DNA from: Candidatus Portnoybacteria bacterium RBG_19FT_COMBO_36_7
GTDB taxonomy: Bacteria > Patescibacteriota > Minisyncoccia > Portnoybacterales > GWB1-42-6
NCBI GenBank assembly: GCA_001819495.1
Contig: MHMW01000030.1
Location: 1-33,556, forward strand
DNA length: 33,556 nt
Direction of reading: 5' to 3'
Position 1 is the first letter of the stretch. Every line of letters starts with the position of its first letter. A program made the translations under genes and the position numbers. The notes under the pieces were generated by a model. That model ran no database searches, was not told the DNA's origin, and was given only the letters and a program-made list of their open reading frames with translations. This document shows positions 247-33,556 of the stretch, in pieces.

Positions 247-576
247 CTATTTGAGCTTTTGGATAGCGAGGATTCTTGGCAATTTGTTATGGTCAAGAAA
301 TGCTATATATATTTCGTCATTTTGGGTCGTATAGATAATAAAGCTATTTGCAGAATAAAGATCAGCAGAAATTTTCGGGTCTGTTTCTTTTATTCTTAAG
401 AGTGAGCCTGCGCCACCAAAGGAATCCGATTTTACCCAGGCAAAAAAGACTTCTTTTTTGAAATTGGGAATTTGTTTTACAGTGCCGATAATTGCTTCTT
501 TGGTCGGAGTACTTCCGCATCCATAAAATTCAACAGACACAATCAAAACTATACAAAGTAAAAAGAACTTTTTCAT
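247..576 (-). CDS. Hypothetical exported protein with lipoprotein-like signal peptide
   Basis: Start trimmed to MKKFFLLCIVLIVSVEFYGC (basic N-terminus, hydrophobic core, GC lipobox-like end); GGGAGG SD 5 nt upstream. Confidence 0.65.
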   Translation of the reverse strand: MKKFFLLCIVLIVSVEFYGCGSTPTKEAIIGTVKQIPNFKKEVFFAWVKSDSFGGAGSLLRIKETDPKISADLYSANSFIIYTTQNDEIYIAFLDHNKLPRILAIQKLK

Positions 577-643
577 AACGTCCTCCCTGTTCGTTATTCC
601 GTTAGAATTCACGGTTAAATCAATATAATATAGACAATAAAAA

Positions 644-2050: not shown

Positions 2051-2710
2051 ATGGAAATAACAATTTCGGAAAATTTAAGAGATAGGCATAAGAACGTCCA
2101 GCTGGCAATGCTCATTATAAGAGACGCGCAGAACAAGGAATTTGACGAGCGGCTGGAAAAAGAAAAAAGAGTTATTGAGCAGTATATCAGGGAAACTTAT
2201 AAGGCAGGAATTGAAAATGTAGGCCTTCTTAAAAAATACAACGATTATTATTTTGAGTTCAATGAAAATTATCCGGTTAAGAAACAAATGAAATCAATTT
2301 TGGAAGGAAAAGAAATTCCTAATATCCTGTGTCTGGTTGACGCGATGTATATGACGGAATTAAAATACGGGTGCCTTGCTGCCGGGCATGATTTGGATGC
2401 GATACAGGGAAATTTGACTTTAGATATTGCTCAAGAAGGGGAGATTTATATAAAAATAAACGATGAAGAACAGGAAGTCAAAAAAGACGATATAGTGATG
2501 CGCGATAACAGCGGAATTATTGCCAGCGTTCTTTTCGGCCCGGATAACCGGACAAAAATAATTCCGATCTCAAAAAATATAATCTATATCGCCTATTTTC
2601 CGTTCTTGGTGCGCAGGAGCGAGAAAATTACGATAATAGCCGATCTGGCCAGGCTTTTGCGAATCTGCGAAGGCCCTCACGCCAAGATAGAAAGAATGGG
2701 ATTTTATTAG
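2051..2710 (+). CDS. Stand-alone B3/B4 (PheRS-beta editing-like) domain protein
   Basis: LVDAMYMTELKYG, AGHDLDAIQG and DDIVMRDNSGII...GP...RTKI segments resemble B3/B4 family proteins; recognised by eye. Confidence 0.75.
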   Translation: MEITISENLRDRHKNVQLAMLIIRDAQNKEFDERLEKEKRVIEQYIRETYKAGIENVGLLKKYNDYYFEFNENYPVKKQMKSILEGKEIPNILCLVDAMYMTELKYGCLAAGHDLDAIQGNLTLDIAQEGEIYIKINDEEQEVKKDDIVMRDNSGIIASVLFGPDNRTKIIPISKNIIYIAYFPFLVRRSEKITIIADLARLLRICEGPHAKIERMGFY

Positions 2711-4929: not shown

Positions 4930-5421
4930 CTAAATGGAGGTTTGCTGCAGTTTGAATTTGACAGAGAGCTCGGCCAAAACATTTTTCTTGTCATGAGCCA
5001 GGAGAGCGGCTTTAATTTCGCCGTGTGTTCCTGAGGGAGCGTCAGAAGATCGGGCGGTACCTCCTGTTTTTTGGGCAAAAACAGGAAGCTGGAGAAAATT
5101 TCTGATAGGCACTGTTTTTCGTATTTTGACCCTGATGTCAAAGCCTAAAAATATAAATTTTTGTAAAGAAAACTTTGAACGGATGGCGAATTCAGAAATT
5201 TCCAGAAGGGCCTGCGTTATCTCGCTGGCCAGCAAGATTGATTGGCCGGGATGATGGTGTGTGTCTTCTTTGAAGTGAGCAAGCCCTTCTGCTTTTTCGC
5301 CCGGCAAAAAAGTATTAATTTTTATCAGATGCCGGGTTTGAGGCAAAATTTCTTTCAGATGGTGTTTGCTGGGCGCGAACTTATAATGATGATGGCCTGT
5401 TTCCGTGATCAATGCTCTCAC
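4930..5421 (-). CDS. Hypothetical protein, possible divergent hotdog fold
   Basis: GTG start preceded by AAAGGGG and followed by its own terminator. HF...HHPG..L..E..QA weakly recalls FabZ/AfsA-type hotdog proteins. Confidence 0.55.
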   Translation of the reverse strand: MRALITETGHHHYKFAPSKHHLKEILPQTRHLIKINTFLPGEKAEGLAHFKEDTHHHPGQSILLASEITQALLEISEFAIRSKFSLQKFIFLGFDIRVKIRKTVPIRNFLQLPVFAQKTGGTARSSDAPSGTHGEIKAALLAHDKKNVLAELSVKFKLQQTSI

Positions 5422-5507
5422 CCCCTTTAATTTTAAATTTTAAAGCAACTTTTCTCATAATATCGCGATTGCCAAAAAGGCGTCAAGTGTGATAGATTAA
5501 AGATATT

Positions 5508-9179: not shown

Positions 9180-9255
9180 ATTGTGCCCGAGGAGGAAGTT
9201 GCTTTAAACTATGCGCTTGGCGCAAGTACGGGGTAAAAACTCTCATGGATATATG

Positions 9256-9339
9256 TGCCGCGGGAGGGATTTGAACCCTCACGGTCTTTCGACCAGTGGT
9301 TTTTGAGACCACCCTGTATACCAGCTCCAGCACCGCGGC
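9256..9339 (-). tRNA. tRNA-Leu (CAA), CCA not encoded
   Basis: Reverse complement folds as a cloverleaf: acceptor GCCGCGG/CCGCGGC plus discriminator A, anticodon arm GTGGT-CTCAAAA-ACCAC, long variable arm, GTTCAAAT T-loop. Confidence 0.95.
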
Positions 9340-13150: not shown

Positions 13151-13244
13151 TACAGTTAATCAATTAAAAGAAAGGAGGGTCAAAAAGTTCTTTTTATTTT
13201 ATTTTTTATGGTCTGAGACGCTAAAAAAAAGGAGATGAGGCTAA

Positions 13245-13760
13245 ATGGAAGAAACCAAAAGAGTCTATGCCGCATTGGTAGCTGCCGGATTGATAATGGG
13301 TCCTGACAGCAAGCTGCTGTTAGTTGAAAAAAGAAGCAGATTGACCTTGCCCACCGGCCATATGGATTCGGAAAAAGACAGAAATTTAGAAGATGCACTT
13401 GTCAGAGAGATGAAAGAAGAGATAAAAGATAAAGCAGGACGGGGAATAGAAGTTAATGTTATGGGCTCTTTGGGCACAATGGTTCGCAATAAGGATACTG
13501 TAAAATCTAAGTTGATTGAGATTTTCCGTTGTGCTATCAATTTGAGCGAAATATGTTTTGAAGAGAAAGGGGAGACTAATTTTTTCTGGGTTGATGTTGA
13601 TGACGCTCTGGGCATTGAGAATCTTGACGACTTGGCTCGGGAAGCAATCCAGAGGCTGATCAATTATTTAAAAGGACACATTTCTTTTAGAATCGTAAAC
13701 GGAGGCGATTATGAGGAGGGAAGAGAACTTGAAGACGAGCAGGAATTCAACGAGTATTAA
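13245..13760 (+). CDS. NUDIX hydrolase
   Basis: Nudix box variant LPTGHMDSEKDRNLEDALVREMKEEI; SD-like AAGGAG upstream. Confidence 0.85.
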   Translation: MEETKRVYAALVAAGLIMGPDSKLLLVEKRSRLTLPTGHMDSEKDRNLEDALVREMKEEIKDKAGRGIEVNVMGSLGTMVRNKDTVKSKLIEIFRCAINLSEICFEEKGETNFFWVDVDDALGIENLDDLAREAIQRLINYLKGHISFRIVNGGDYEEGRELEDEQEFNEY

Positions 13761-18261: not shown

Positions 18262-18462
18262 ATTTTTACTCTTTTAATTCTTCTATGGCAGAATTCAGCA
18301 TCTGGACGATGAGTTCAAAGTTCGACTATTAGAATTTAATATTATCACATCCATTAATACCCAAGCTAGCCGAAGAAAAGACGACAAATTTGACAGAGTT
18401 GCGCATTTGCTGTAAGTATAAAGAAAAATCAAATTTGTTATTTTATAAAGAGAGGAGGGGTT

Positions 18463-18948
18463 ATGAACGCTAAGGAAAGAAAAGCTCTTTTGTTGTTTCT
18501 TTTTTGGGCGAGACAGAACCACGGCTATGCCAGCGGTGTTAAAGGTACGAAATTGGCAAAGAGTGGCAGTGAGTTTAGATGCAGCTGTAAAAAATTTTCT
18601 TACCGGGACCAAGTTTGGTGCGAAGACCCTTTTATCGGCCAGGAGATGGTTAGCCACGATGATCAAGGTTGGATTTGGGGGATGAATTATTATGGCCGAA
18701 CGTTAAAGAGCAATCAGAAAGTTAAAAGAGATGCAATATTCGCATTTCTGAGATCCGCTTTAATGGAGTGCAACAAGAAGTGGCCACATCGGGGTCCTAA
18801 AATGGTCATCCAAGGAGTCTGGGTCTATGAAAATGAACGCGATATAATAGGCAGCCTCGATAATTTTTGCGGCACTGAAAAGATTTTTTACAAAGGCGTA
18901 CTAGTCTATCGGGGTGAATACCATGGAGGAATCATTAGCGGAGATTAG
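18463..18948 (+). CDS. DUF5680-like protein
   Basis: YRD......F.GQE.V.....W.MNYYG...F.G.E.I......VY...YHGG pattern recognised by eye; strong GAGGAGGGG SD. Confidence 0.75.
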   Translation: MNAKERKALLLFLFWARQNHGYASGVKGTKLAKSGSEFRCSCKKFSYRDQVWCEDPFIGQEMVSHDDQGWIWGMNYYGRTLKSNQKVKRDAIFAFLRSALMECNKKWPHRGPKMVIQGVWVYENERDIIGSLDNFCGTEKIFYKGVLVYRGEYHGGIISGD

Positions 18949-21164: not shown

Positions 21165-21215
21165 GTTTGTAAAAGTTATTTTCAAATTAAATATTGAATA
21201 CAAAAGGAGGAGAAT

Positions 21216-21410
21216 ATGTCTGATTTGATGGCAGGATTGGTATTTTTGGTCGGGGCGGCGGCAGTTTGGTTTATGCCGGCATTATCATTTATCAGCGTCA
21301 GAAGATCGTCGGTTTTATACGGCGTTTTAATGATTCAGGCAGCGGCGACGCTTATTTTTTTGGTTATCGGCATAACATTGGTTTGTTTATTTTCTGGAAC
21401 AAAAATATAA
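21216..21410 (+). CDS. Small two-TM membrane protein (64 aa)
   Basis: AAGGAGG SD; two hydrophobic segments separated by SVRRSS. Confidence 0.7.
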   Translation: MSDLMAGLVFLVGAAAVWFMPALSFISVRRSSVLYGVLMIQAAATLIFLVIGITLVCLFSGTKI

Positions 21411-21478
21411 AAAATGCAGGAGCAAAAAGAAAAAATTTAAAAAAAACCGCTTTAGCGAGGTCGAAAGGAGAAACGGCA

Positions 21479-21835
21479 ATGGCAAAAAAATTTAAGAAAT
21501 GTCAGGCAGACGGCTGTGGAAAGTTCTTGAATTCATACAACAAAATCGGTTTTTGTTCTTTACATATTGACGGGCCGGCAAAAAAGATTTTCGTTGCCTT
21601 TACTAAAGGCCGGCGATCCGAGGCATGCCTCTGCTGGTGGGGAGACAAGGAAAGCATTTTGAAAGATTATCGTTCCTGTATAGAGATTACGGTTACCGGC
21701 AGACATTATTTTTATTTGAAAAAAATGGCTGCTTTATTGGACCGCTTGGAACCGGTGCTTGGCAGTACTTTTCTTTCAGTAGATATTCCCGATATGCTTT
21801 TGAGGGCATTTAAAAGAAATCCCCAAAAAATTTAA
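21479..21835 (+). CDS. Hypothetical protein with putative N-terminal Zn-binding motif (118 aa)
   Basis: AAAGGAG SD before ATG 21479; C-x4-C...C-x2-H (CQADGC...CSLH); terminator follows. Confidence 0.7.
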   Translation: MAKKFKKCQADGCGKFLNSYNKIGFCSLHIDGPAKKIFVAFTKGRRSEACLCWWGDKESILKDYRSCIEITVTGRHYFYLKKMAALLDRLEPVLGSTFLSVDIPDMLLRAFKRNPQKI

Positions 21836-24866: not shown

Positions 24867-26192
24867 TTGTCTCGAAAAAAAACAAAAATTTTGCAGGCGC
24901 CGCGCGGCACCTATGATATTCTCCCGGAAGATCAGATTTATTGGGAGAAAGTTAGGCGCGTGGTCAGAGAGCTGGCAGATGATTATGGTTTTGCCAGAAT
25001 TGATACGCCCATCATTGAAGATACGGAATTGTTCATAAAAGGAACAGGCCAGACCACAGATATCGTTCAGAAACAGATGTATAGCTTCAGGACTCTGGGA
25101 AACGACAGCTTGACACTGCGGCCAGAAGGAACGCCGGGCGTCATCCGTTCATATATACAGAGCGGCATGATTAATGCGCCTCATCCGGTCAAGCTTTATT
25201 ATTTCGGGCCGATGTTCCGCTATGAACATCCTCAAGCCGGCCGATACAGGCAATTCTATCAGTTCGGTTTTGAGACTATCGGCGGTCAGGAGCCGGTGCT
25301 TGACGTACAGCTTATCCAGCTTTTTTCGCATATTCTAAATGACCTCGGCCTTAAAAAAATAAATGTCCAGGTAAATAGTCTCGGGTGCCCTGAATGCCGG
25401 CCGGGCTTCAGGAGAGGGCTGGTTGATTATTATCGGAGCAGAAAAAACAGGATTTGTCCGGACTGCCAGAAAAGAATAAAAATAAATCCCCTGCGCTTGC
25501 TTGACTGCAAAGAAGAAAAATGCCAGCCGATAAAAACCGATGCTCCTCTTCCGCTTGATTATCTGTGTCATGGCTGCCATAATCATTTTAAAAGTGTTCT
25601 GGAATTCCTTGATGAATTGGATATTCCGTATTTTTTAAACCATCAGCTGGTGCGAGGTCTTGATTATTATACCAAAACCGTTTTTGAGGTCTGGCCGGAA
25701 TCTGACTCTGTCCAGTCGCCAGAAAAGGAAGAAGCGCAGGAAATCAAAGAGCCGATATCTTTGGGCGGCGGCGGCCGCTATGACAATCTTGTAAAAATGC
25801 TGGGCGGCAAGGTGACGCCTTCGGCCGGATTTGCGGCTGGAATTGAGCGCATTATTTATTTAATGAAAGAACAGGGAGTAAAGCTGCCTTCAAAGAGCAA
25901 TGCCAAAGTTTTTCTTGTTCAGTTGGGGGAATTAGGACAGCGCAAAAGCATGAAACTTTTTGAAGAGCTTCATAAAGCCGAAATCAAGGTGGCCGAATCA
26001 TTGAGCAAGCCGAGCATTAAATCTCAGCTTAGAATTGCCGACAAGCTAGGCGTTAAATTTTCACTGATTCTCGGCCAGCAGGAAGCGCTGGATAGCTCGG
26101 TCATTATCCGCGACATGCAGTCGGGAGTCCAGGAAACCGTGCCCAAAGAGAAGGTTGTCAATGAACTGAAAAAAAGACTGGCAAAAAAGTAA
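24867..26192 (+). CDS. hisS: Histidyl-tRNA synthetase
   Basis: PRGTYD, LRPEGT, GRYRQFYQ, LVRGLDYY, GGGRYD and GFAAGIERI motifs. Confidence 0.99.
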   Translation: MSRKKTKILQAPRGTYDILPEDQIYWEKVRRVVRELADDYGFARIDTPIIEDTELFIKGTGQTTDIVQKQMYSFRTLGNDSLTLRPEGTPGVIRSYIQSGMINAPHPVKLYYFGPMFRYEHPQAGRYRQFYQFGFETIGGQEPVLDVQLIQLFSHILNDLGLKKINVQVNSLGCPECRPGFRRGLVDYYRSRKNRICPDCQKRIKINPLRLLDCKEEKCQPIKTDAPLPLDYLCHGCHNHFKSVLEFLDELDIPYFLNHQLVRGLDYYTKTVFEVWPESDSVQSPEKEEAQEIKEPISLGGGGRYDNLVKMLGGKVTPSAGFAAGIERIIYLMKEQGVKLPSKSNAKVFLVQLGELGQRKSMKLFEELHKAEIKVAESLSKPSIKSQLRIADKLGVKFSLILGQQEALDSSVIIRDMQSGVQETVPKEKVVNELKKRLAKK

Positions 26193-26201
26193 ATACGTCT
26201 C

Positions 26202-26356
26202 GGTAATCGCCTCAGAAAACCGCAGTCGGCCCTAACATTATAGAATTAAGTAATTACTCGGCCGCTGCTCAGCGCTCGCCGCGCAAAAAAAATATCAGTC
26301 AAAAAACAATAAGTTATTCTGGGCGCGGCTGCGCGATGTTTTCTTCGGCGACCACC
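26202..26356. other. Long-stem structured intergenic element
   Basis: TCGCC/GGCGA, AGAAAAC/GTTTTCT, CGCAGTCG/CGGCTGCG and GCCC/GGGC nested pairings. Confidence 0.65.
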
Positions 26357-26378
26357 TCGCCTCGAAAGAAAAAAATAC

Positions 26379-26729
26379 ATGGATTGCATTTTTTGCAAAA
26401 TAGTAAAAAAAGAAATTCCGGCAAAGATTCTTTTTGAAGATGAATTAGTGGTAGCGTTTCCCGATATTCATCCTTTTGCACCCGTCCATATTTTGATTAT
26501 TCCCAAAGAGCACATTGAGACGATCGCGGATCTCCAGGACAAACACGAAAAATTGACGGGCCGGCTGGTGATGACCGCCAAAAAATTGGCCGATAAAGCC
26601 GGTATCAGCCAAAATGGCTACAAATTACTTTTTCGCGTAAAAAAGCACGGCGGTCAGGAAGTGCCGCATATTCATTTGCATTTGATAGGAGGGGCAAAGC
26701 TGAGCGAAAATATAAGACCGATTAAATAA
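26379..26729 (+). CDS. Histidine-triad (HIT) nucleotide-binding protein
   Basis: DCIFCKI, DIHP.AP.H.LIIPK and GQEVPHIHLH motifs. Confidence 0.96.
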   Translation: MDCIFCKIVKKEIPAKILFEDELVVAFPDIHPFAPVHILIIPKEHIETIADLQDKHEKLTGRLVMTAKKLADKAGISQNGYKLLFRVKKHGGQEVPHIHLHLIGGAKLSENIRPIK

Positions 26730-26815
26730 TTTTTAATTTTTAATTTTATAAATAATTTATTAATTTCTTAATTTTTAAACGTTTAAAAATTAAGAAATTT
26801 GAAATTAAAAATTCG
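26730..26815. repeat. AT-rich heptamer element containing a perfect 38-bp palindrome
   Basis: AATTTCTTAATTTTTAAAC-GTTTAAAAATTAAGAAATT at 26762-26799. Confidence 0.8.
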
Positions 26816-26834
26816 CGAAAGGAGGTTGATTTAG

Positions 26835-27098
26835 TTGGCTATTGAAGTAAGAAAAAAAGATAAAGAATCAACAGGGTCGCTTTTGCGACGTTTCAGCCGC
26901 CGTGTTCAGCAGAGCGGTGTTTTGCTGCGCGCCAGACGCGTCAGGTTTTTTCAAAAAGAAAAGACAAAGCGCCAGGTAAAAGCAAGCGCCCTTCGGCGCC
27001 AGGAGCTTCGCAAACAGAGAGTGCATCTTTTGAAGCTGGGACTTATTGAAGAAGGAGAAATGATACCAAAAGATAAAATAAAACTTAAAAAGCGCTAA
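26835..27098 (+). CDS. rpsU: 30S ribosomal protein bS21 with C-terminal extension
   Basis: IEV.K...ES..SLLRRF...V..SG.L..AR...FF.K pattern; TTG start with AAAGGAGGT SD at 26818-26826. Confidence 0.9.
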   Translation: MAIEVRKKDKESTGSLLRRFSRRVQQSGVLLRARRVRFFQKEKTKRQVKASALRRQELRKQRVHLLKLGLIEEGEMIPKDKIKLKKR

Positions 27099-27151
27099 TT
27101 GTTTTGTCCAAAATTTGGAGCCGCAGGCGAACAAATTTGGATATAATTGGC

Positions 27152-27643
27152 ATGGGTTTAAAAGAAAAAATAGATCAGGATTTCAAAGAAGCCTTTAAAG
27201 GGAGGAACGAATCGCAGCTTTCAGTTCTGCGGATGCTTTTGGCTGCCTTAAAAAATAAAGAAGTTGAAAAAAGAACGAAATTAAGCAAAAGCGAGCCGAT
27301 TGAAAAACTTGAAGAATTGAGCCGTTTGAGCGAAGAAGAAGTCATTGAAGTTCTGTCCTCTGAGATCAAAAAACGCAGAGAGGCCTCGGACCAATACAAA
27401 AAAGGAGATAGGATGGAACTGGCCGAGAAAGAGGAGGGCGAGATAAAAATCCTGGCGGTGTATATGCCAGAGCAGATGAGCGAAGAAAAAGTGGCACAAT
27501 TGGTCAGTGAAACAATAAAAGAAACTGGCGCCAGCTCCCCCAAGGATATGGGCCGTTTAATGGGGGTGCTGATGCCAAAAGTCAAAGGAAAAGTGGACGG
27601 GAGCGTTGTTGGCAGGATAGTTAAGGAACAATTGGGGGGCTGA
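27152..27643 (+). CDS. yqeY: GatB/YqeY domain protein
   Basis: LRMLLAALKN.E, EIKKRREA..QYKKG.R.ELAEKE..EI..L..YMP.QMS, KDMGR.MG motifs; start trimmed to ATG at 27152. Confidence 0.93.
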   Translation: MGLKEKIDQDFKEAFKGRNESQLSVLRMLLAALKNKEVEKRTKLSKSEPIEKLEELSRLSEEEVIEVLSSEIKKRREASDQYKKGDRMELAEKEEGEIKILAVYMPEQMSEEKVAQLVSETIKETGASSPKDMGRLMGVLMPKVKGKVDGSVVGRIVKEQLGG

Positions 27644-27644
27644 A

Positions 27645-27740
27645 AATTATAAATTTCAAATCAAGCTTAAAATCCCTGCCTGCCGGCAGGCAGGCAAAAT
27701 CCAAAACGTTTTTGACATTTGAGCTTTGATATTTGGATTC
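27645..27740. repeat. Heptamer-arm element with nested 20-bp perfect palindrome
   Basis: CCTGCCTGCCGGCAGGCAGG at 27675-27694, central AAAACGTTTT, right arm TTGACAT TTGAGCT TTGATAT TTGGATT. Confidence 0.75.
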
Positions 27741-28151
27741 ATGTTACAGATTACTAATTTAGCAGGAAACAAAATTAATCGGAGATTATTTAGTAAAGTT
27801 CTTGAAAAAACCTTAAAAATAGTTGATGGATCTGTATTGGGTGAAATTAGTCTGGTTTTTGTCGCTGAAGAAAAGATAAAAGAGATAAATTATCAGTATC
27901 GGCGCAAGAATGAAGTCACCGACGGCCTAAGCTTTGAGGGGCTGAACGAAATTTTTATCTGTCCGTCTTTTATCAAAAAACAGGCTAAAAGCTTAAATAC
28001 GCCGTTTGGCAGTGAATTGATGAGAGTCCTGATTCATGGTATATTGCACTTAAAAGGGTTTGACCACGAAAAAAGCGGGAAAGAAGCGGATAAGATGAGA
28101 AAACTGGAAGAAAAAATATTGCAAAATATAAATGAAGGAGCCAAAAGATAA
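27741..28151 (+). CDS. ybeY: Endoribonuclease YbeY
   Basis: N.QYR.K...TD.LSF and HGILHLKGFDH metal motif; ATG at 27741. Confidence 0.93.
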   Translation: MLQITNLAGNKINRRLFSKVLEKTLKIVDGSVLGEISLVFVAEEKIKEINYQYRRKNEVTDGLSFEGLNEIFICPSFIKKQAKSLNTPFGSELMRVLIHGILHLKGFDHEKSGKEADKMRKLEEKILQNINEGAKR

Positions 28152-28236
28152 AAAATTTTCGTGCCCCATCTGCACAATGGTCTTTATTTTAGCGCTCGCA
28201 ACAGCGGCGGCAGCTGTCGCCGTGATTTTGTGGTAA
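28132..28236 (+). CDS. Putative 34-aa membrane peptide with CxxC (not in the ORF track)
   Basis: Manual translation MKEPKDKKFSCPICTMVFILALATAAAAVAVILW*; overlaps the ybeY end and fills the gap before ftsA. Confidence 0.5.
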   Translation: MKEPKDKKFSCPICTMVFILALATAAAAVAVILW

Positions 28237-28289
28237 GATTTTGCGATTTATAATTTTTTATTTTGATTTTTGCATTTTGAACTAATATT

Positions 28290-29537
28290 ATGCCCAGACA
28301 AAGAATCATTATCGGAATAGACGTTGGCTCCTCCAATATCAGAGTGGCGGTGGCCGAACAGGGAAAGGAGCAGGGAATGCCTTTTCAGATTTTGGGAGTC
28401 GGCCAAACGCGAGCTTTGGGCATGCGCAAGGGCGTGGTGGTTGATCTTGAAGAGACAGCTAAGAATATCAAAGAAGCGGTGGCGGCAGCCGAGCGCACCA
28501 GCGGAATTAAGATTGAAAGCGCCACGGTTTCCCTTGGCGGAGACCATTTAGGTTGCCGTTCCAGCCGCGGCGTTATTGCGGTTTCCCGGGCTGACGGCGA
28601 AATATCAGCAGAAGACATGGACAGAGCTGTCCGGGCGGCTTCGGCTATCTCTCTTGGAGCGAACAGAGAAATGATCCAGATCGTTCCCAAGCAGTTTTGC
28701 GTTGACAGCCAGCAGTCGGTCAAAGATCCGGTGGGTATGAAAGGAGTGAGACTGGAAGTTGATGTTTTAATACTTGAGGGCGCCACACCTTTTATAAAAA
28801 ATCTGGTGAAGGCGGTGGGTGAAGCGGAAATTGACATTGAAGGCCTGGTGCCTTCTTCTTTGGCCGCGGCCAAAGCCGTTTTGGACAGAAGACAGAAAGA
28901 ATTAGGATCTCTGGTGCTGGACATGGGCAGCGGCACGACCGGTTTTTGTGTTTTTGAAGAAGGAGAGATAGTTGACAGCTGTATTCTGCCGGTTGGTTCG
29001 GGCCATATTACAAATGATCTGGCTATTGGTCTGCGCATTCCCATTGATGTGGCAGAAAAAATAAAATTGGAGTATGGATCGGTTCTGCCAGACGAGATCA
29101 ATAAAAAAGAAATGATCAATTTGGAAAAACTGGGCGGTGACGATGGCGAGGTTTCCAGGCAAAAAGTGGCCGAGATCATCGAGGCCAGGGTAGCTGAAAT
29201 ATTTGATTTGGCGCATAAAAGACTGAAACAGATAGATCGGGCGGGTCTTCTGCCTTCGGGCGTCGTGCTCGTTGGGGGCGGCGCCAAACTGCCGGGGCTG
29301 GTTGATTTGGCAAAACAAAAATTGAGACTGCCTTCTCAGATCGGTTTCCCGATAGATTTTGAAGGCGTGATAGAGCAGGTGGATGATCCCTGTTTTGCTA
29401 CGGTGCTGGGTCTGATTATTTGCGCCGGCGAGCAGAACGAAGAATTAAGAAGCCGGGTTTCAAACACATTTATTTTTTCTTCATTGGCGCCGGCAGTAAA
29501 TAAATTTAAGAACTGGTTTAAATCTTTTTTGCCTTAA
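28290..29537 (+). CDS. ftsA: Cell division protein FtsA
   Basis: IGIDVGSS, GMRKGVVVD, DPVGM.G.RLE, LDMGSGTT, GSGHITNDLA, LVGGGAKL and ATVLGL motifs. Confidence 0.98.
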   Translation: MPRQRIIIGIDVGSSNIRVAVAEQGKEQGMPFQILGVGQTRALGMRKGVVVDLEETAKNIKEAVAAAERTSGIKIESATVSLGGDHLGCRSSRGVIAVSRADGEISAEDMDRAVRAASAISLGANREMIQIVPKQFCVDSQQSVKDPVGMKGVRLEVDVLILEGATPFIKNLVKAVGEAEIDIEGLVPSSLAAAKAVLDRRQKELGSLVLDMGSGTTGFCVFEEGEIVDSCILPVGSGHITNDLAIGLRIPIDVAEKIKLEYGSVLPDEINKKEMINLEKLGGDDGEVSRQKVAEIIEARVAEIFDLAHKRLKQIDRAGLLPSGVVLVGGGAKLPGLVDLAKQKLRLPSQIGFPIDFEGVIEQVDDPCFATVLGLIICAGEQNEELRSRVSNTFIFSSLAPAVNKFKNWFKSFLP

Positions 29538-29555
29538 TTTTTTATTTCGGGGCTT

Positions 29556-29686
29556 GCCCCCCACCTAATCTGGATTTTAAGAGAGAATTTTTATAATACG
29601 AGTAGTTGTTTTATCAAATATATATTTCCTTTCTGTATAAATTTTTATTTTAAGCCTTCGGCTCTATCCAGTTTAGGTGTGGGGGC
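29556..29686. repeat. Element bounded by about 20-bp imperfect inverted repeats
   Basis: GCCCCCCACCTAATCTGGAT ... ATCCAGTTTAGGTGTGGGGGC with an internal AGCCTTCGGCT mini-hairpin. Confidence 0.7.
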
Positions 29687-29771
29687 TTGACAAACATACT
29701 GGCTTTGCCATATTCTTAAATATTGATACCAGATTTTATTTTTTATCTTTAATGGTTTATAAACCGTCACC

Positions 29772-30890
29772 ATGGCGCAAATAAAACCGGAAATTGAGAC
29801 GTTTGCCAAAATTAAAGTGGTGGGCGTCGGAGGCGGAGGGAATAATGCAGTTTCTCGCATGGCAGACTGCAAAATTCAGGGCGTGGAATTGATAGGAATC
29901 AACGCCGATGCCCAAGATCTGCATTCGTGCCTGGCAACGCAGAAGGTTCTTATCGGAAAGAATCTGACCAAGGGTTTGGGAGCCGGCATGAATCCGGATA
30001 TCGGCCGCCAGGCGGCTGAAGAAAATCGCGATGAAATCCATGAAGTGATCAAAGGCGCTGATTTGGTTTTCATCACTTATGGTCTGGGCGGCGGCGTGGG
30101 GACGGGCGCGGGGCCGATTGTGGCCGAAGCGGCCAGAGACGCAGGCGCCCTGACAGTCGGTGTCGTGACAAGACCTTTTTCTTTTGAAGGAGCGCAGCGG
30201 ATGCGAATTGCCGAAGAGGGCTTAAACTGGCTGAAGGACAAAGTTGACACTTTAATTACTATTCCAAACGACAAACTTCTTTCAGTGGTTGACAGGAACA
30301 CATCGCTGCTGGACGCTTTTAAAGTGGCGGATGACGTTTTGCGCCAGGGCGTGCAGGGAATTTCAGATATTATTGTGACACCCGGTATCGTTAACGTAGA
30401 TTTCGCTGATCTGAAAGCAATTATGCAGGGTGCCGGCTCCGCTATCATGGGGATCGGCCGGGCTCAAGGCGACGACCGGGCGGCCGAAGCGGCCAGGCAG
30501 GCAATAAATTCTCCTCTGCTTGAGGTTTCAATTGAAGGAGCCAAAGGGGTGATATTTAATGTTTCGGGCGGCGATGACCTGAGCATGCTTGAAATAAATG
30601 AAGCGGCCAAAATCATAACCGAAGCAATAGACCCGCAGGCAAAAGTCATTTTTGGAGCGGTGACTGATGATAAATTAAAAAAGGGCGAAATTAAGATTAC
30701 GGTCATTGCGGCCGGATTTGGCGAGCAGGCGAGAAAAGAGGAAGCAACCGGCAAGCTGCCGCTTGAAGATAAGCTTTCCGGAAAAATAAAGAAACCGGTT
30801 TTTACCACCACTCAGGTTGCCAGCACGCAGGAAGACGAAGCAGGGGACGAATGGGATATTCCCGCCTTCATCCGCAAGAAAATGAAATAG
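29772..30890 (+). CDS. ftsZ: Cell division protein FtsZ
   Basis: IKVVGVGGGGNNAV, TKGLGAG.NP, PFSFEG..R, NVDFAD and C-terminal DIPAFIRK motifs; signature reads GGGVGTG. Confidence 0.99.
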   Translation: MAQIKPEIETFAKIKVVGVGGGGNNAVSRMADCKIQGVELIGINADAQDLHSCLATQKVLIGKNLTKGLGAGMNPDIGRQAAEENRDEIHEVIKGADLVFITYGLGGGVGTGAGPIVAEAARDAGALTVGVVTRPFSFEGAQRMRIAEEGLNWLKDKVDTLITIPNDKLLSVVDRNTSLLDAFKVADDVLRQGVQGISDIIVTPGIVNVDFADLKAIMQGAGSAIMGIGRAQGDDRAAEAARQAINSPLLEVSIEGAKGVIFNVSGGDDLSMLEINEAAKIITEAIDPQAKVIFGAVTDDKLKKGEIKITVIAAGFGEQARKEEATGKLPLEDKLSGKIKKPVFTTTQVASTQEDEAGDEWDIPAFIRKKMK

Positions 30891-32905: not shown

Positions 32906-32965
32906 AATTATTAAAATAAATATTAAATTAAAATCATTAACTAATTAAAGGAGGAAGAAAAAAAT

Positions 32966-33556
32966 ATGAAAAAAAAGTACAAAATTCTTAAATACATAAT
33001 TGTTGCGGCCATAATTTTAGCGCCTGTCGGCTATCTGGTTCAGGCGGCCGACGAAAACACCTCAATCAGCCTAACCAGCTGGAGCACTTATTTGTCGTTT
33101 ATTACAAAGGATAAAAAATCTCCTTATGTATATATTATCTCGCCTTTTTCCGGCCAGAGAGTTTCAGGAGTGATTATTTTGCGAGCTTCGGCTACCGATC
33201 GCTCCGGTATTGCTTACGTGCAATTTTTGGTTGACGGCGCTGATTTTGGAGCGGCGGACACGCTTTCTCCTTATTCAATTAGCGCTGATACGACTCAATT
33301 GACAAACGGCACTCATAAAATCAGCGCCCGGGCAGCTGATAAAGCGGGAAATGTCGGCATCTCGCCGACGGTCTCGGTTAATGTATCAAATAATTATGTT
33401 CCTCCTCCGCCTCTTCCGACTCCGCCTTCAGCTCCCCTCTGTCCGACCTCTCCGGCATTTGGCGCCAGCCCAAATCCGATAGAATCAGGCCAGTCTTCAA
33501 CCCTGTCTTTTGGCGTGATTTCAAACGCCGCATCCTGCAGCATTGATAACAATGTG
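32966..33556 (+). CDS. Secreted protein with bacterial Ig-like domain and Pro-rich linker (runs off the window)
   Basis: Manual translation MKKKYKILKYIIVAAIILAPVGYLVQAA...SATDRSGIAYVQFLVDG...DTTQLTNGTHKISARAADKAGN...PPPPLPTPP; AAAGGAGG SD; open to the window end. Confidence 0.88.
   Translation, partial: MKKKYKILKYIIVAAIILAPVGYLVQAADENTSISLTSWSTYLSFITKDKKSPYVYIISPFSGQRVSGVIILRASATDRSGIAYVQFLVDGADFGAADTLSPYSISADTTQLTNGTHKISARAADKAGNVGISPTVSVNVSNNYVPPPPLPTPPSAPLCPTSPAFGASPNPIESGQSSTLSFGVISNAASCSIDNNV

What the first reader, a model, noticed from the sequence alone, without database searches (positions are those of the whole stretch)
26818..27098. rpsU is the only core gene with a strong SD: possible bS21 autoregulation
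Seen: AAAGGAGGTTGAT, close to a full complement of the 16S tail, precedes a weak TTG start. About 20 other core genes here have A/T-rich starts with no SD; strong SDs otherwise occur only on accessory genes (576, 13245, 18463, 21216, 21479, 32966). This bS21 has an extended C-terminus (..RVHLLKLGLIEEGE..). Established: in Flavobacterium johnsoniae, bS21 helps sequester the anti-SD, and rpsU carries a strong SD so that bS21-deficient ribosomes translate it preferentially. Inference: the same feedback may operate in this CPR-like lineage, and bS21 status could also switch on SD-led accessory genes.
Basis: partly seen in the sequence, partly recalled or inferred. Interest (0 to 1): 0.68.

Follow-up and report, generated by a model that had tools for sequence, protein, structure and literature searches.

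The report
bS21 gene keeps a rare Shine-Dalgarno
In tiny uncultured Parcubacteria whose housekeeping genes have dropped the classical ribosome-binding site, the gene for ribosomal protein bS21 keeps a very strong, conserved one; in Flavobacterium this signature marks a loop where ribosomes lacking bS21 make more of it, but the loop itself is untested here.

Summary
Window 26835-27098(+) encodes bS21 and starts at TTG. AAAGGAGGT at 26818-26826 precedes it and is the strongest anti-SD complement anywhere in the window, on either strand. About 27 housekeeping genes have no SD.

The lineage is Candidatus Portnoybacteria (Parcubacteria, CPR). Across the window plus 80 species-level relatives, rpsU has a strong SD in 59 of 81. 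The split is bimodal and follows phylogeny. Only 8 of 630 conserved neighbouring genes reach that strength, even taking the best candidate start (p ~1e-58). In the rpsU leader, only the SD and start codon are conserved. The leaders fit the canonical 16S tail better than 300 shuffled tails.

This matches the genomic signature of the bS21/anti-SD feedback circuit proven in Flavobacterium johnsoniae. I found no report of it for CPR.

The mechanism remains inferred:
- No 16S, bS18, bS6 or other r-protein gene could be reached.
- The bS21 tail is long and basic and lacks the Bacteroidia signature.
- Some accessory genes, such as DUF5680, also keep conserved strong SDs, so these ribosomes may not be SD-blind.

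Verdict: a predicted new variant of a known circuit, of moderate to high interest.

The parts
26730..26834 (+). Intergenic region and rpsU leader between the HIT-family gene stop (26729) and the rpsU start. It is AT-rich and contains an AU-only hairpin at 26762-26799.
   Evidence: In the alignment with 11 relatives, only the SD and start codon are conserved; relatives carry GC-rich terminator-like hairpins at the equivalent place. No Rfam family matches.
26818..26826 (+). Extended Shine-Dalgarno AAAGGAGGT, perfectly complementary to 5'-ACCUCCUUU-3'. With a one-base bulge the complementarity continues through TGAT to 26830. An 8-nt spacer separates it from the start codon.
   Evidence: dG is -12.6 (9-nt tail) or -15.7 kcal/mol (13-nt tail). 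This is the global minimum of the window. It is the only AAAGGAGGT in the window.
26835..27098 (+). rpsU, encoding ribosomal protein bS21 (87 aa), with a TTG start. The C-terminal tail (residues 69-87, GLIEEGEMIPKDKIKLKKR) extends beyond the E. coli protein.
   Evidence: Pfam PF01165. PDB profile search. 485 homologues named S21 from Portnoybacteria or Parcubacteria. AlphaFold model: helices 13-27, 29-37 and 45-68, then a non-helical tail; mean pLDDT 83.5.
27153..27643 (+). yqeY (GatB/YqeY domain), the first gene downstream. It has no SD. It belongs to the conserved rpsU-yqeY-ybeY synteny.
27726..28151 (+). ybeY, encoding the nuclease that matures the 16S 3' end. It has no SD and is syntenic with rpsU in 56 loci.
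18450..18948 (+). DUF5680 accessory gene with a strong SD (AGAGGAGGGG, then ATG at 18463). This is the best example of a conserved SD on a non-core gene.
   Evidence: dG -12.5. Six further copies at about 52-57% identity all carry AGAGGAGG, with dG -11.9 to -12.5.
21202..21835 (+). Two small SD-led genes of unknown function. The first is 21216-21410, with AAAAGGAGGAG at 21202-21212. The second is 21479-21835, with AAAGGAGA at 21464-21471.
13229..13760 (+). NUDIX gene with SD AAGGAGATGAGG, then ATG at 13245.
   Evidence: dG -8.9 (9-nt tail) or -11.0 (13-nt tail). Pfam NUDIX.
32947..33556 (+). Big_7 (bacterial Ig-like) surface-protein gene with SD AAAGGAGGAAG, then ATG at 32966. It runs off the end of the window.
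247..588 (-). Hypothetical 109-aa gene with SD AGGGAGG at 582-588, then ATG at 576.
4930..5428 (-). Hypothetical gene of about 160 aa with SD AAAGGGGGTGA at 5418-5428, then TTG at 5412.
   Evidence: dG -12.1. No Pfam hit.

Best explanation
The AAAGGAGGT before rpsU is a selected cis-regulatory element. It pairs with the 3' tail of 16S rRNA. Almost all housekeeping mRNAs in this lineage start translation without such pairing, using AU-rich or leaderless starts.

The most likely function is negative feedback on bS21 synthesis, as in Flavobacterium johnsoniae. 30S subunits that lack bS21, either late assembly intermediates or subunits that lost it, would have a freer 16S tail and would initiate better on rpsU mRNA. 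bS21-replete subunits would use the SD less well, so bS21 output would fall as occupancy rises.

Shown here:
- The SD exists and is the strongest in the window.
- It is conserved across deeply diverged Parcubacteria while the rest of the leader is not.
- Neighbouring core genes lack SDs.
- The leaders match the canonical tail specifically.

Inferred:
- That the 16S of this organism retains CACCUCCUUU.
- That bS21 hinders SD-anti-SD pairing here.
- That this produces feedback.
For: (1) Strength. dG is -12.6 kcal/mol, the minimum of all windows on both strands. It is -15.7 with a 13-nt tail, beyond the -13 threshold used by McNutt et al. 2023 (PMC9976891).

(2) SD-poor context. 27 of 35 window genes score above -5. 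In the window plus 80 related loci, core first starts reach -4.5 in 9-11% of cases, against 86% for 59 annotated E. coli starts. G falls to 7-14% at positions -1 to -10. SD-like pentamers are two-fold depleted at start regions relative to coding sequence.

(3) Specificity. The bS21 family has a strong SD in 59/81 loci, and the values are bimodal (60 at or below -7.6, 21 above -4). The twelve main syntenic core families (HisRS, HIT, YqeY, YbeY, FtsA, FtsZ, signal peptidase, Pth, LytR, DprA, TopA, Mfd) show 0-11%. All conserved families pooled give 8/630 at -10, even taking the best of all candidate starts (Fisher p 1.7e-58).

(4) Conservation. There are 17 SD-plus clusters at 70% bS21 identity and no mixed cluster. 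The inferred root state is SD-plus, with about 3 losses. Only the SD and start codon are conserved in the leader.

(5) Pairing to a fixed rRNA sequence. The pairing register and exact sequence vary (AAGGAGGTG, AGTGAGGTG, AGAGAGGTGA, GGGGAGGT), but all complement GAUCACCUCCUUU. Mean dG is -13.9, against -7.9 +/- 1.45 for 300 shuffled tails; none of the shuffles is as good.

(6) Precedent. The same genomic signature is experimentally tied to bS21 autoregulation in F. johnsoniae and is predicted in Chlorobia (PMC7797042, PMC9976891, PMC13000453, PMC13000457).
Against: - No 16S rRNA gene of this lineage could be examined. The CCTCCT motif was reported in only 48% of Parcubacteria 16S genes (PMC9297842).
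- The bS21 C-terminal domain is long (43 aa) and strongly basic (pI about 11.1, net +10) and has no Tyr. This is unlike the Bacteroidia signature of a less basic domain with Tyr54 (PMC7797042).
- bS18 and bS6 are not available.
- rpsU is not the only SD-led gene. About 9% of accessory genes have strong SDs. Those of DUF5680 are conserved across orthologues at 52-57% identity. Their strength is close to that of rpsU: median -12.8 against -13.4, p 0.048. The ribosome may therefore recognise SDs normally.
- 21 of 81 relatives lack the rpsU SD altogether yet still show some SD-led accessory genes.
- No other r-protein gene could be scored, so a general habit of r-protein genes keeping SDs is not excluded.
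- No transcript or ribosome-profiling data exist for this organism.
Confidence: 0.5

Rival explanations
1. This is an ordinary strong SD with no feedback. rpsU is a short, monocistronic, highly expressed gene with its own 5' leader after a terminator, and in this species it has a weak TTG start. It keeps a strong SD simply to initiate efficiently. Most other genes are leaderless or use AU-rich leaders. These ribosomes recognise SDs normally.
For: - SD-led accessory genes exist and their SDs are conserved (DUF5680). This suggests SDs work in the ordinary way.
- Accessory SDs are nearly as strong as the rpsU SD.
- -10-like hexamers peak 6-8 nt upstream of core ATGs, so many core mRNAs may be leaderless and need no SD.
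- bS21 lacks the Bacteroidia sequestration signature.
- 13 of 60 SD-plus rpsU genes have TTG or GTG starts.
Against: - Core genes with long upstream gaps, and presumably leaders (HisRS, HIT, FtsA, FtsZ), have no SD and are G-depleted upstream.
- 47 of 60 SD-plus rpsU genes start with ATG, so compensation for a weak start codon is not the general reason.
- A 9-10 bp SD far exceeds what efficient E. coli genes use: median -6.3, with 2% at or below -10.
- This model does not explain why the one conserved gene that keeps an SD encodes the protein that sits next to the SD-anti-SD helix.
Confidence: 0.28
2. This is classical r-protein feedback. Free bS21 protein binds the purine-rich leader of its own mRNA and blocks initiation. 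Under this reading the conserved element is a protein-binding site that only resembles an SD.
For: Many bacterial r-protein operons are controlled this way (established knowledge). bS21 is very basic. The conserved element is short and single-stranded in the predicted fold.
Against: - The conserved element varies in sequence and register between lineages yet always stays complementary to the canonical 16S tail. That points to RNA-RNA pairing rather than a protein site.
- The spacer to the start codon is the canonical 5-9 nt.
- No conserved structure or other leader motif is present.
- No Rfam leader family matches.
Confidence: 0.07
3. This is a relic or a chance match: an ancestral SD not yet eroded, with no present function.
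For: The ancestor of these lineages probably used SDs. Twenty-one relatives have lost the rpsU SD without obvious consequence.
Against: - The SD is retained in 17 clusters that differ by more than 30% in bS21 sequence, while the flanking leader is unalignable.
- The values are bimodal with no intermediates.
- All other conserved neighbouring genes lost theirs.
- The chance rate of an SD this strong is about 0.1% per position.
Confidence: 0.03

Closest known systems
rpsU (bS21) translational autoregulation through anti-SD sequestration in Flavobacterium johnsoniae / Bacteroidia (Jha 2020 PMC7797042; McNutt 2023 PMC9976891; Naeem 2026 PMC13000453; PMC13000457)
   Same: The genome is SD-poor, with A/T-rich, G-depleted start regions. 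rpsU carries an extended SD beyond -13 kcal/mol. That SD is conserved across relatives while neighbouring housekeeping genes have none. Some sublineages have lost it, as Blattabacteria and others have within the Flavobacteriales.
   Different: The phylum differs (Patescibacteria). The bS21 C-terminal domain is longer and strongly basic and lacks Tyr54. rpsU is not the sole SD-led gene, and its SD is only marginally stronger than conserved accessory SDs; in Flavobacteriales rpsU stands about 8 kcal/mol beyond everything else. The 16S tail, bS18 and bS6 have not been examined. There is no biochemical evidence.
Predicted bS21 autoregulation in Chlorobia (McNutt 2023 PMC9976891)
   Same: This too is a prediction from the genomic signature alone, with a bS21 C-terminus that lacks Tyr54. 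The authors suggest a 'similar but not identical' mechanism.
   Different: Chlorobia share 11 other tail-contacting residues with Bacteroidia and belong to the same phylum. Here the lineage is unrelated and those residues could not be checked.
Specialised ribosomes through bS21 paralogues in Francisella tularensis (PMC9578407, PMC13374519), and phage-encoded bS21 (PMC9723584)
   Same: bS21 content of the ribosome changes which mRNAs are translated. This is the general idea behind a possible SD-led regulon.
   Different: Those systems use paralogue exchange. Only one bS21 gene is seen here, and no relative of it was found in IMG/VR viral contigs.
Classical r-protein mRNA-binding feedback (for example S15, S4, L20 leaders)
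   Same: Autoregulation of an r-protein at the level of translation initiation.
   Different: Those systems rely on structured leaders that mimic rRNA sites. Here only an unstructured SD is conserved.

Membership tests
Ribosomal protein bS21 (Pfam PF01165) | Sequence match to the S21 family above the curated cut-off | tested here: met
   30.2 bits against a cut-off of 27, residues 5-56. A profile of 21 homologues hits E. coli and other bS21 chains in ribosome structures, E 5e-10 to 1e-8.
Ribosomal protein bS21 (Pfam PF01165) | bS21 fold: an N-terminal segment followed by two long helices | tested here: met
   AlphaFold model: helices 13-27, 29-37 and 45-68; mean pLDDT 83.5. No structure comparison was run.
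Bacteroidota-type rpsU SD / anti-SD autoregulatory circuit | SDs are generally absent from the genome's genes | tested here: met
   Tested on the window and 80 related loci only. Core starts reach -4.5 kcal/mol in 9-11% of cases, against 86% in the E. coli control. The region upstream of starts is G-depleted. No whole genome was available.
Bacteroidota-type rpsU SD / anti-SD autoregulatory circuit | rpsU has the lowest pairing energy among r-protein genes, below -13 kcal/mol with the full 3' tail (McNutt 2023 criteria) | tested here: inconclusive
   dG is -15.7 kcal/mol with an assumed tail GAUCACCUCCUUU, the lowest of all gene starts in the window. 65% of SD-plus relatives are at or below -13. 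No other r-protein gene is present in any held locus. The real tail is unknown.
Bacteroidota-type rpsU SD / anti-SD autoregulatory circuit | The 16S rRNA retains an anti-SD complementary to the rpsU SD | not testable with these tools
Indirect support: the rpsU leaders fit the canonical tail better than 300 shuffled tails. The literature reports partial loss of the motif in Parcubacteria (PMC9297842).
Bacteroidota-type rpsU SD / anti-SD autoregulatory circuit | The rpsU SD is conserved across relatives | tested here: met
   59/81 loci. There are 17 SD-plus clusters at 70% identity and no mixed cluster. Only the SD and start codon are conserved in the leader.
Bacteroidota-type rpsU SD / anti-SD autoregulatory circuit | rpsU is essentially the only gene with a strong SD (Flavobacteriales) | tested here: not met
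   Seven other SD-led genes lie in the window. About 9% of accessory genes in relatives are SD-led. The DUF5680 SD is conserved. SD strengths overlap.
Bacteroidota-type rpsU SD / anti-SD autoregulatory circuit | The bS21 C-terminal domain is less basic and carries the signature Tyr54, which stacks on A1534 | tested here: not met
   The domain is 43 aa, pI about 11.1, net charge +10, with no Tyr. The SD-plus group mean pI is 10.7. For comparison, the E. coli domain has pI 11.9.
Bacteroidota-type rpsU SD / anti-SD autoregulatory circuit | bS18 and bS6 residues that form the platform pocket | not testable with these tools
   rpsR and rpsF are not in the window or in any held locus.
Bacteroidota-type rpsU SD / anti-SD autoregulatory circuit | Ribosomes lacking bS21 translate rpsU mRNA faster | not testable with these tools
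   This needs biochemistry or genetics. The organism is uncultured, and only DNA runs hold the sequence.

The most novel reading that the evidence does not exclude
Parcubacteria may run a two-tier translation system. Housekeeping mRNAs would initiate without SD pairing, many of them leaderless. A small, conserved set of SD-led mRNAs (rpsU plus accessory genes such as DUF5680, NUDIX, and small membrane and surface proteins) would be read preferentially by 30S subunits that lack bS21. bS21 occupancy would then act as a global switch for an SD regulon, not only as self-feedback. The long, conserved bS21 tail (GLLEEGQLIPK...) would be the element that masks the 16S 3' end, using a structural solution different from the Bacteroidia pocket.
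Probability: 0.18. Interest if true: 0.85.

Novelty: new variant of a known kind. Interest (0 to 1): 0.6.

Why it matters
bS21-dependent control of the anti-SD is so far demonstrated only in Bacteroidota. If the same logic operates in Patescibacteria, a very distant and very large radiation, three things would follow.

- It would suggest a general rule: when a lineage abandons SD-led initiation, the conserved 16S tail is kept at least partly to sense bS21 occupancy.
- It would help explain why the anti-SD persists in SD-poor bacteria.
- It would predict where the anti-SD can be lost, namely in the SD-minus rpsU clade seen here and in the Parcubacteria reported to lack CCTCCT.

There is also a practical point. 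SD-trained gene callers will mis-place starts in these genomes, and rpsU leaders could serve as a proxy read-out of the 16S tail in MAGs that lack rRNA genes.

Tried and rejected
- 16S 3' end: I searched the window and the 80 related loci for the conserved AAGTCGTAACAAGGTA region and found nothing. I did not run a generic 16S pattern scan of metagenomes, because hits could not be tied to this lineage.
- Extending the source contig: exact-protein look-ups of MetRS and the GT2 gene found nothing. The bS21 look-up gave only contigs of about 1-3 kb.
- Other r-protein genes in the related loci: BLAST with 59 E. coli proteins from the S10/spc/alpha/str regions found only two EF-G-like GTPases. Motif scans for small r-proteins found none.
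- prfB frameshift site, as independent evidence for the anti-SD: none in the held loci.
- Known RNA families in the leader: only hairpin noise.
- Leader structure that could mask the SD: the SD is unpaired in the centroid fold, and the fold is not significant (z -1.55).
- Transcript evidence: only DNA runs hold the sequence.
- Phage-borne bS21 of this type: none in IMG/VR.
- Recent horizontal transfer of the SD-led accessory genes: their GC and GC3 are typical of the window.
- An alternative non-canonical RBS motif on core genes: only AT-rich, -10-like pentamers are enriched.
- Supplement of Tsurumaki 2022, for per-phylum anti-SD data: not held.

Full report
**What is at the coordinates**

The plus strand reads ...aattcgcgAAAGGAGGTTGATttagTTGGCTATTGAAGTA.... 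AAAGGAGGT (26818-26826) is a perfect 9-nt complement of 5'-ACCUCCUUU-3'. An in-frame TAG lies directly before the TTG at 26835, and the ORF runs to 27098.

The 87-aa product is ribosomal protein bS21. It matches Pfam PF01165 at 30.2 bits against a cut-off of 27. A profile of 21 homologues hits E. coli and other bS21 chains in solved ribosomes at E 5e-10. Orthologues have ATG in the same alignment column as this TTG, so the start is well placed. Four independent assemblies carry an identical leader.

**Is it more than chance?**

- Duplex energy against ACCUCCUUU is -12.6 kcal/mol. That equals the minimum over every 17-nt window on both strands of the 33.5-kb window; 0.08% of positions reach -12.
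- It is the only AAAGGAGGT in the window.
- With a 13-nt tail (GAUCACCUCCUUU) the value is -15.7, the lowest of all gene starts.

**The rest of the window**

I called and annotated about 35 genes. Housekeeping genes include MetRS, TatD, Def, LeuRS, TsaC, ParA, ParB, RelA/SpoT, TopA, DprA, an Mfd-like helicase, Pth, LytR, signal peptidase, HisRS, HIT, YqeY, YbeY, FtsA and FtsZ. All of them score above -5 kcal/mol, most above -3.

Strong SDs with canonical spacing precede the following genes:

| Start | Product |
|---|---|
| 576(-) | hypothetical, 109 aa |
| 13245 | NUDIX |
| 18463 | DUF5680 |
| 21216 | small protein, 64 aa |
| 21479 | hypothetical, 118 aa |
| 32966 | Big_7 (Ig-like surface protein) |

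The distribution is bimodal. The SD-led genes have ordinary GC and GC3, so nothing points to recent transfer.

**Lineage**

The closest bS21 homologues are named Candidatus Portnoybacteria, Parcubacteria or Patescibacteria. A scan of one genome per GTDB species returned 270 relatives. I kept the best 80, each with up to 10 kb of flank on either side. They span Portnoy-, Moran-, Falkow-, Azam- and Sungbacteria-type MAGs.

**Survey of relatives**

- For rpsU itself, 60 of 81 loci (window included) have dG at or below -7.6, and 59 are at or below -8.5. The other 21 are above -4, and nothing falls in between.
- The SD consensus is RAAAGGRGGTG, with 5-9 nt to the start.
- On a bS21 tree the state is coherent. 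The inferred root is SD-plus, with about three losses. At 70% identity there are 17 SD-plus-only clusters, 7 SD-minus-only clusters and no mixed cluster.
- In an alignment of 12 leaders, only the SD and the start codon are conserved.
- The exact SD and its pairing register differ between clades (AAGGAGGTG, AGTGAGGTG, AGAGAGGTGA, GGGGAGGT). All are complementary to the canonical tail. Mean dG is -13.9, against -7.9 +/- 1.45 for 300 shuffled tails, none of which does as well. A Chryseobacterium-type tail gives -7.9. This is the behaviour expected of pairing to a fixed rRNA sequence, and it indirectly predicts a canonical anti-SD in these lineages.

**Specificity**

I called ORFs in all loci, clustered the proteins, and scored the best SD over all candidate starts in the first 120 nt. 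This over-counts SDs, so it is an upper bound.

- The twelve main syntenic core families (HisRS, HIT, YqeY, YbeY, FtsA, FtsZ, signal peptidase, Pth, LytR, DprA, TopA, Mfd) have strong SDs in 0-11% of members. The bS21 family has them in 75%.
- Pooled over all conserved families: 8/630 core genes against 59/81 rpsU genes, Fisher p 1.7e-58. The loci are phylogenetically related, so this p-value overstates independence.
- The same metric applied to 59 annotated E. coli starts gives 86% at or below -4.5, with a median of -6.3. Parcubacteria core first starts give 9-11%.
- Upstream of core ATGs, G drops to 7-14%. SD-like pentamers are two-fold depleted there. The enriched pentamers are TAATA, TAAAT and TATAA.
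- -10-like hexamers peak 6-8 nt before the ATG, the signature of leaderless mRNAs.

**Accessory genes**

Genes outside conserved families carry strong SDs in about 9-11% of cases, against 1-2% for core genes (p 5e-7). This is heritable. In three small families, every member is SD-led. The DUF5680 gene keeps AGAGGAGG, with dG -11.9 to -12.5, in six further copies, all at about 52-57% protein identity. Five of these are shown in the same DprA-Mfd gap. rpsU SDs are only slightly stronger than these: median -13.4 against -12.8 kcal/mol, p 0.048.

**Comparison with what is known**

In F. johnsoniae the anti-SD is buried in a pocket formed by bS21, bS18 and bS6. rpsU is the one gene with an extended SD, and ribosomes lacking bS21 translate it faster. 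Ablating the anti-SD is rescued by rewiring rpsU. [quoted passage not shown] The predictive criteria are that rpsU is lowest among r-protein genes and below -13 kcal/mol. They are met across much of Bacteroidia and in Chlorobia (PMC9976891).

None of these papers mentions Patescibacteria. No paper in the searchable library combines bS21 with Patescibacteria. The only paper in it linking Parcubacteria to SDs reports the CCTCCT motif in 48% of Parcubacteria 16S genes and frequent apparent absence of bS21 (PMC9297842).

**Where this case departs from the Bacteroidia circuit**

- The bS21 C-terminal domain is 43 aa, pI about 11, with no tyrosine. Bacteroidia have a less basic domain with Tyr54.
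- The conserved tail GL[LI]EEG[QE][LM]IPK follows the second long helix and is predicted non-helical.
- SD-minus lineages also have a KLGKL..EE tail. It is about 7 residues shorter, but this difference is confounded with phylogeny.
- rpsU is not the sole SD-led gene here.
- The 16S tail, bS18 and bS6 could not be examined.

**Conclusion**

The conserved, specific, extended SD on rpsU in an otherwise SD-poor lineage is real. It reproduces the genomic signature of the bS21/anti-SD feedback loop in a second, very distant phylum. Feedback through bS21-dependent access to the 16S tail is the best-supported reading (about 0.5). The structural means would have to differ from Bacteroidia.

The main rival (about 0.28) is that these ribosomes read SDs normally, and that rpsU, like a minority of accessory genes, simply uses one. 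Whole-genome scoring with the true 16S tail would separate the two, and both data sets exist publicly for the MAGs listed.

Noticed in passing
window 18450-18948; L004 942-1439; L086-L090: A DUF5680 gene sits between dprA and the Mfd-like helicase gene. It always carries a strong AGAGGAGG SD (dG -11.9 to -12.5), even at about 52-57% protein identity. L089 holds two DUF5680 copies plus another SD-led gene in a row. This is a conserved SD-led accessory gene in an SD-poor lineage.
   Followed up: yes
window, many gene starts (for example 9407, 5508, 10272, 28290, 24867); pooled loci L001-L080: -10-like TANNNT hexamers peak 6-8 nt upstream of the ATG of core genes that have upstream gaps of 60 nt or more (counts 30/24/15 against a background of about 10). 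Start regions are enriched in TAATA, TAAAT and TATAA. This suggests that many Parcubacteria mRNAs are leaderless. A second cluster, of TAATAT(T) directly abutting the ATG, is unexplained.
   Followed up: partly
window 26762-26799: A perfect 17-bp AU-only inverted repeat (AAUUUCUUAAUUUUUAA/UUAAAAAUUAAGAAAUU) lies between the HIT gene and the rpsU SD. It is not significant against shuffles (z -1.55). Relatives have GC-rich hairpins at the same place, so it is probably the terminator of the upstream gene.
   Followed up: partly
L016, L017, L020, L024, L026-L028, L030, L032, L034, L035, L039, L044, L045, L047, L049, L056, L059, L069, L070, L076: A coherent clade (Sungbacteria- and Azambacteria-like, plus L017/L056) has no SD at all on rpsU. 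It also has higher GC (0.51 against 0.42) and a shorter bS21 tail. Whether this clade matches the Parcubacteria reported to lack the CCTCCT anti-SD motif (PMC9297842) is unknown. Some of its accessory genes still look SD-led.
   Followed up: partly
window 24867-30890 and 48-67 of the 81 loci: The synteny HisRS-HIT-rpsU-yqeY-ybeY-(DgkA-like)-ftsA-ftsZ is conserved. The bS21 gene therefore sits next to ybeY, which encodes the nuclease that matures the 16S 3' end, the very RNA segment the SD pairs with.
   Followed up: no
window 9255-9339 (-): tRNA-Leu (anticodon CAA). It is the only RNA gene found in the window by ARAGORN and Rfam.
   Followed up: yes
window 2051-2710 (+): A stand-alone B3_4 domain protein (the domain found in the PheRS beta-subunit) is encoded immediately after MetRS, in a tight MetRS-B3_4-TatD-Def gene string with 3-11 nt gaps.
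   Followed up: no
window 26826-26834: The SD is followed at once by an in-frame TTG ATT TAG mini-frame that ends directly at the real TTG start. The same GGAGGTTGATT sequence recurs in L005 and L015. It is probably incidental, because it forms part of the extended complement to the AUCA portion of the 16S tail.
   Followed up: no
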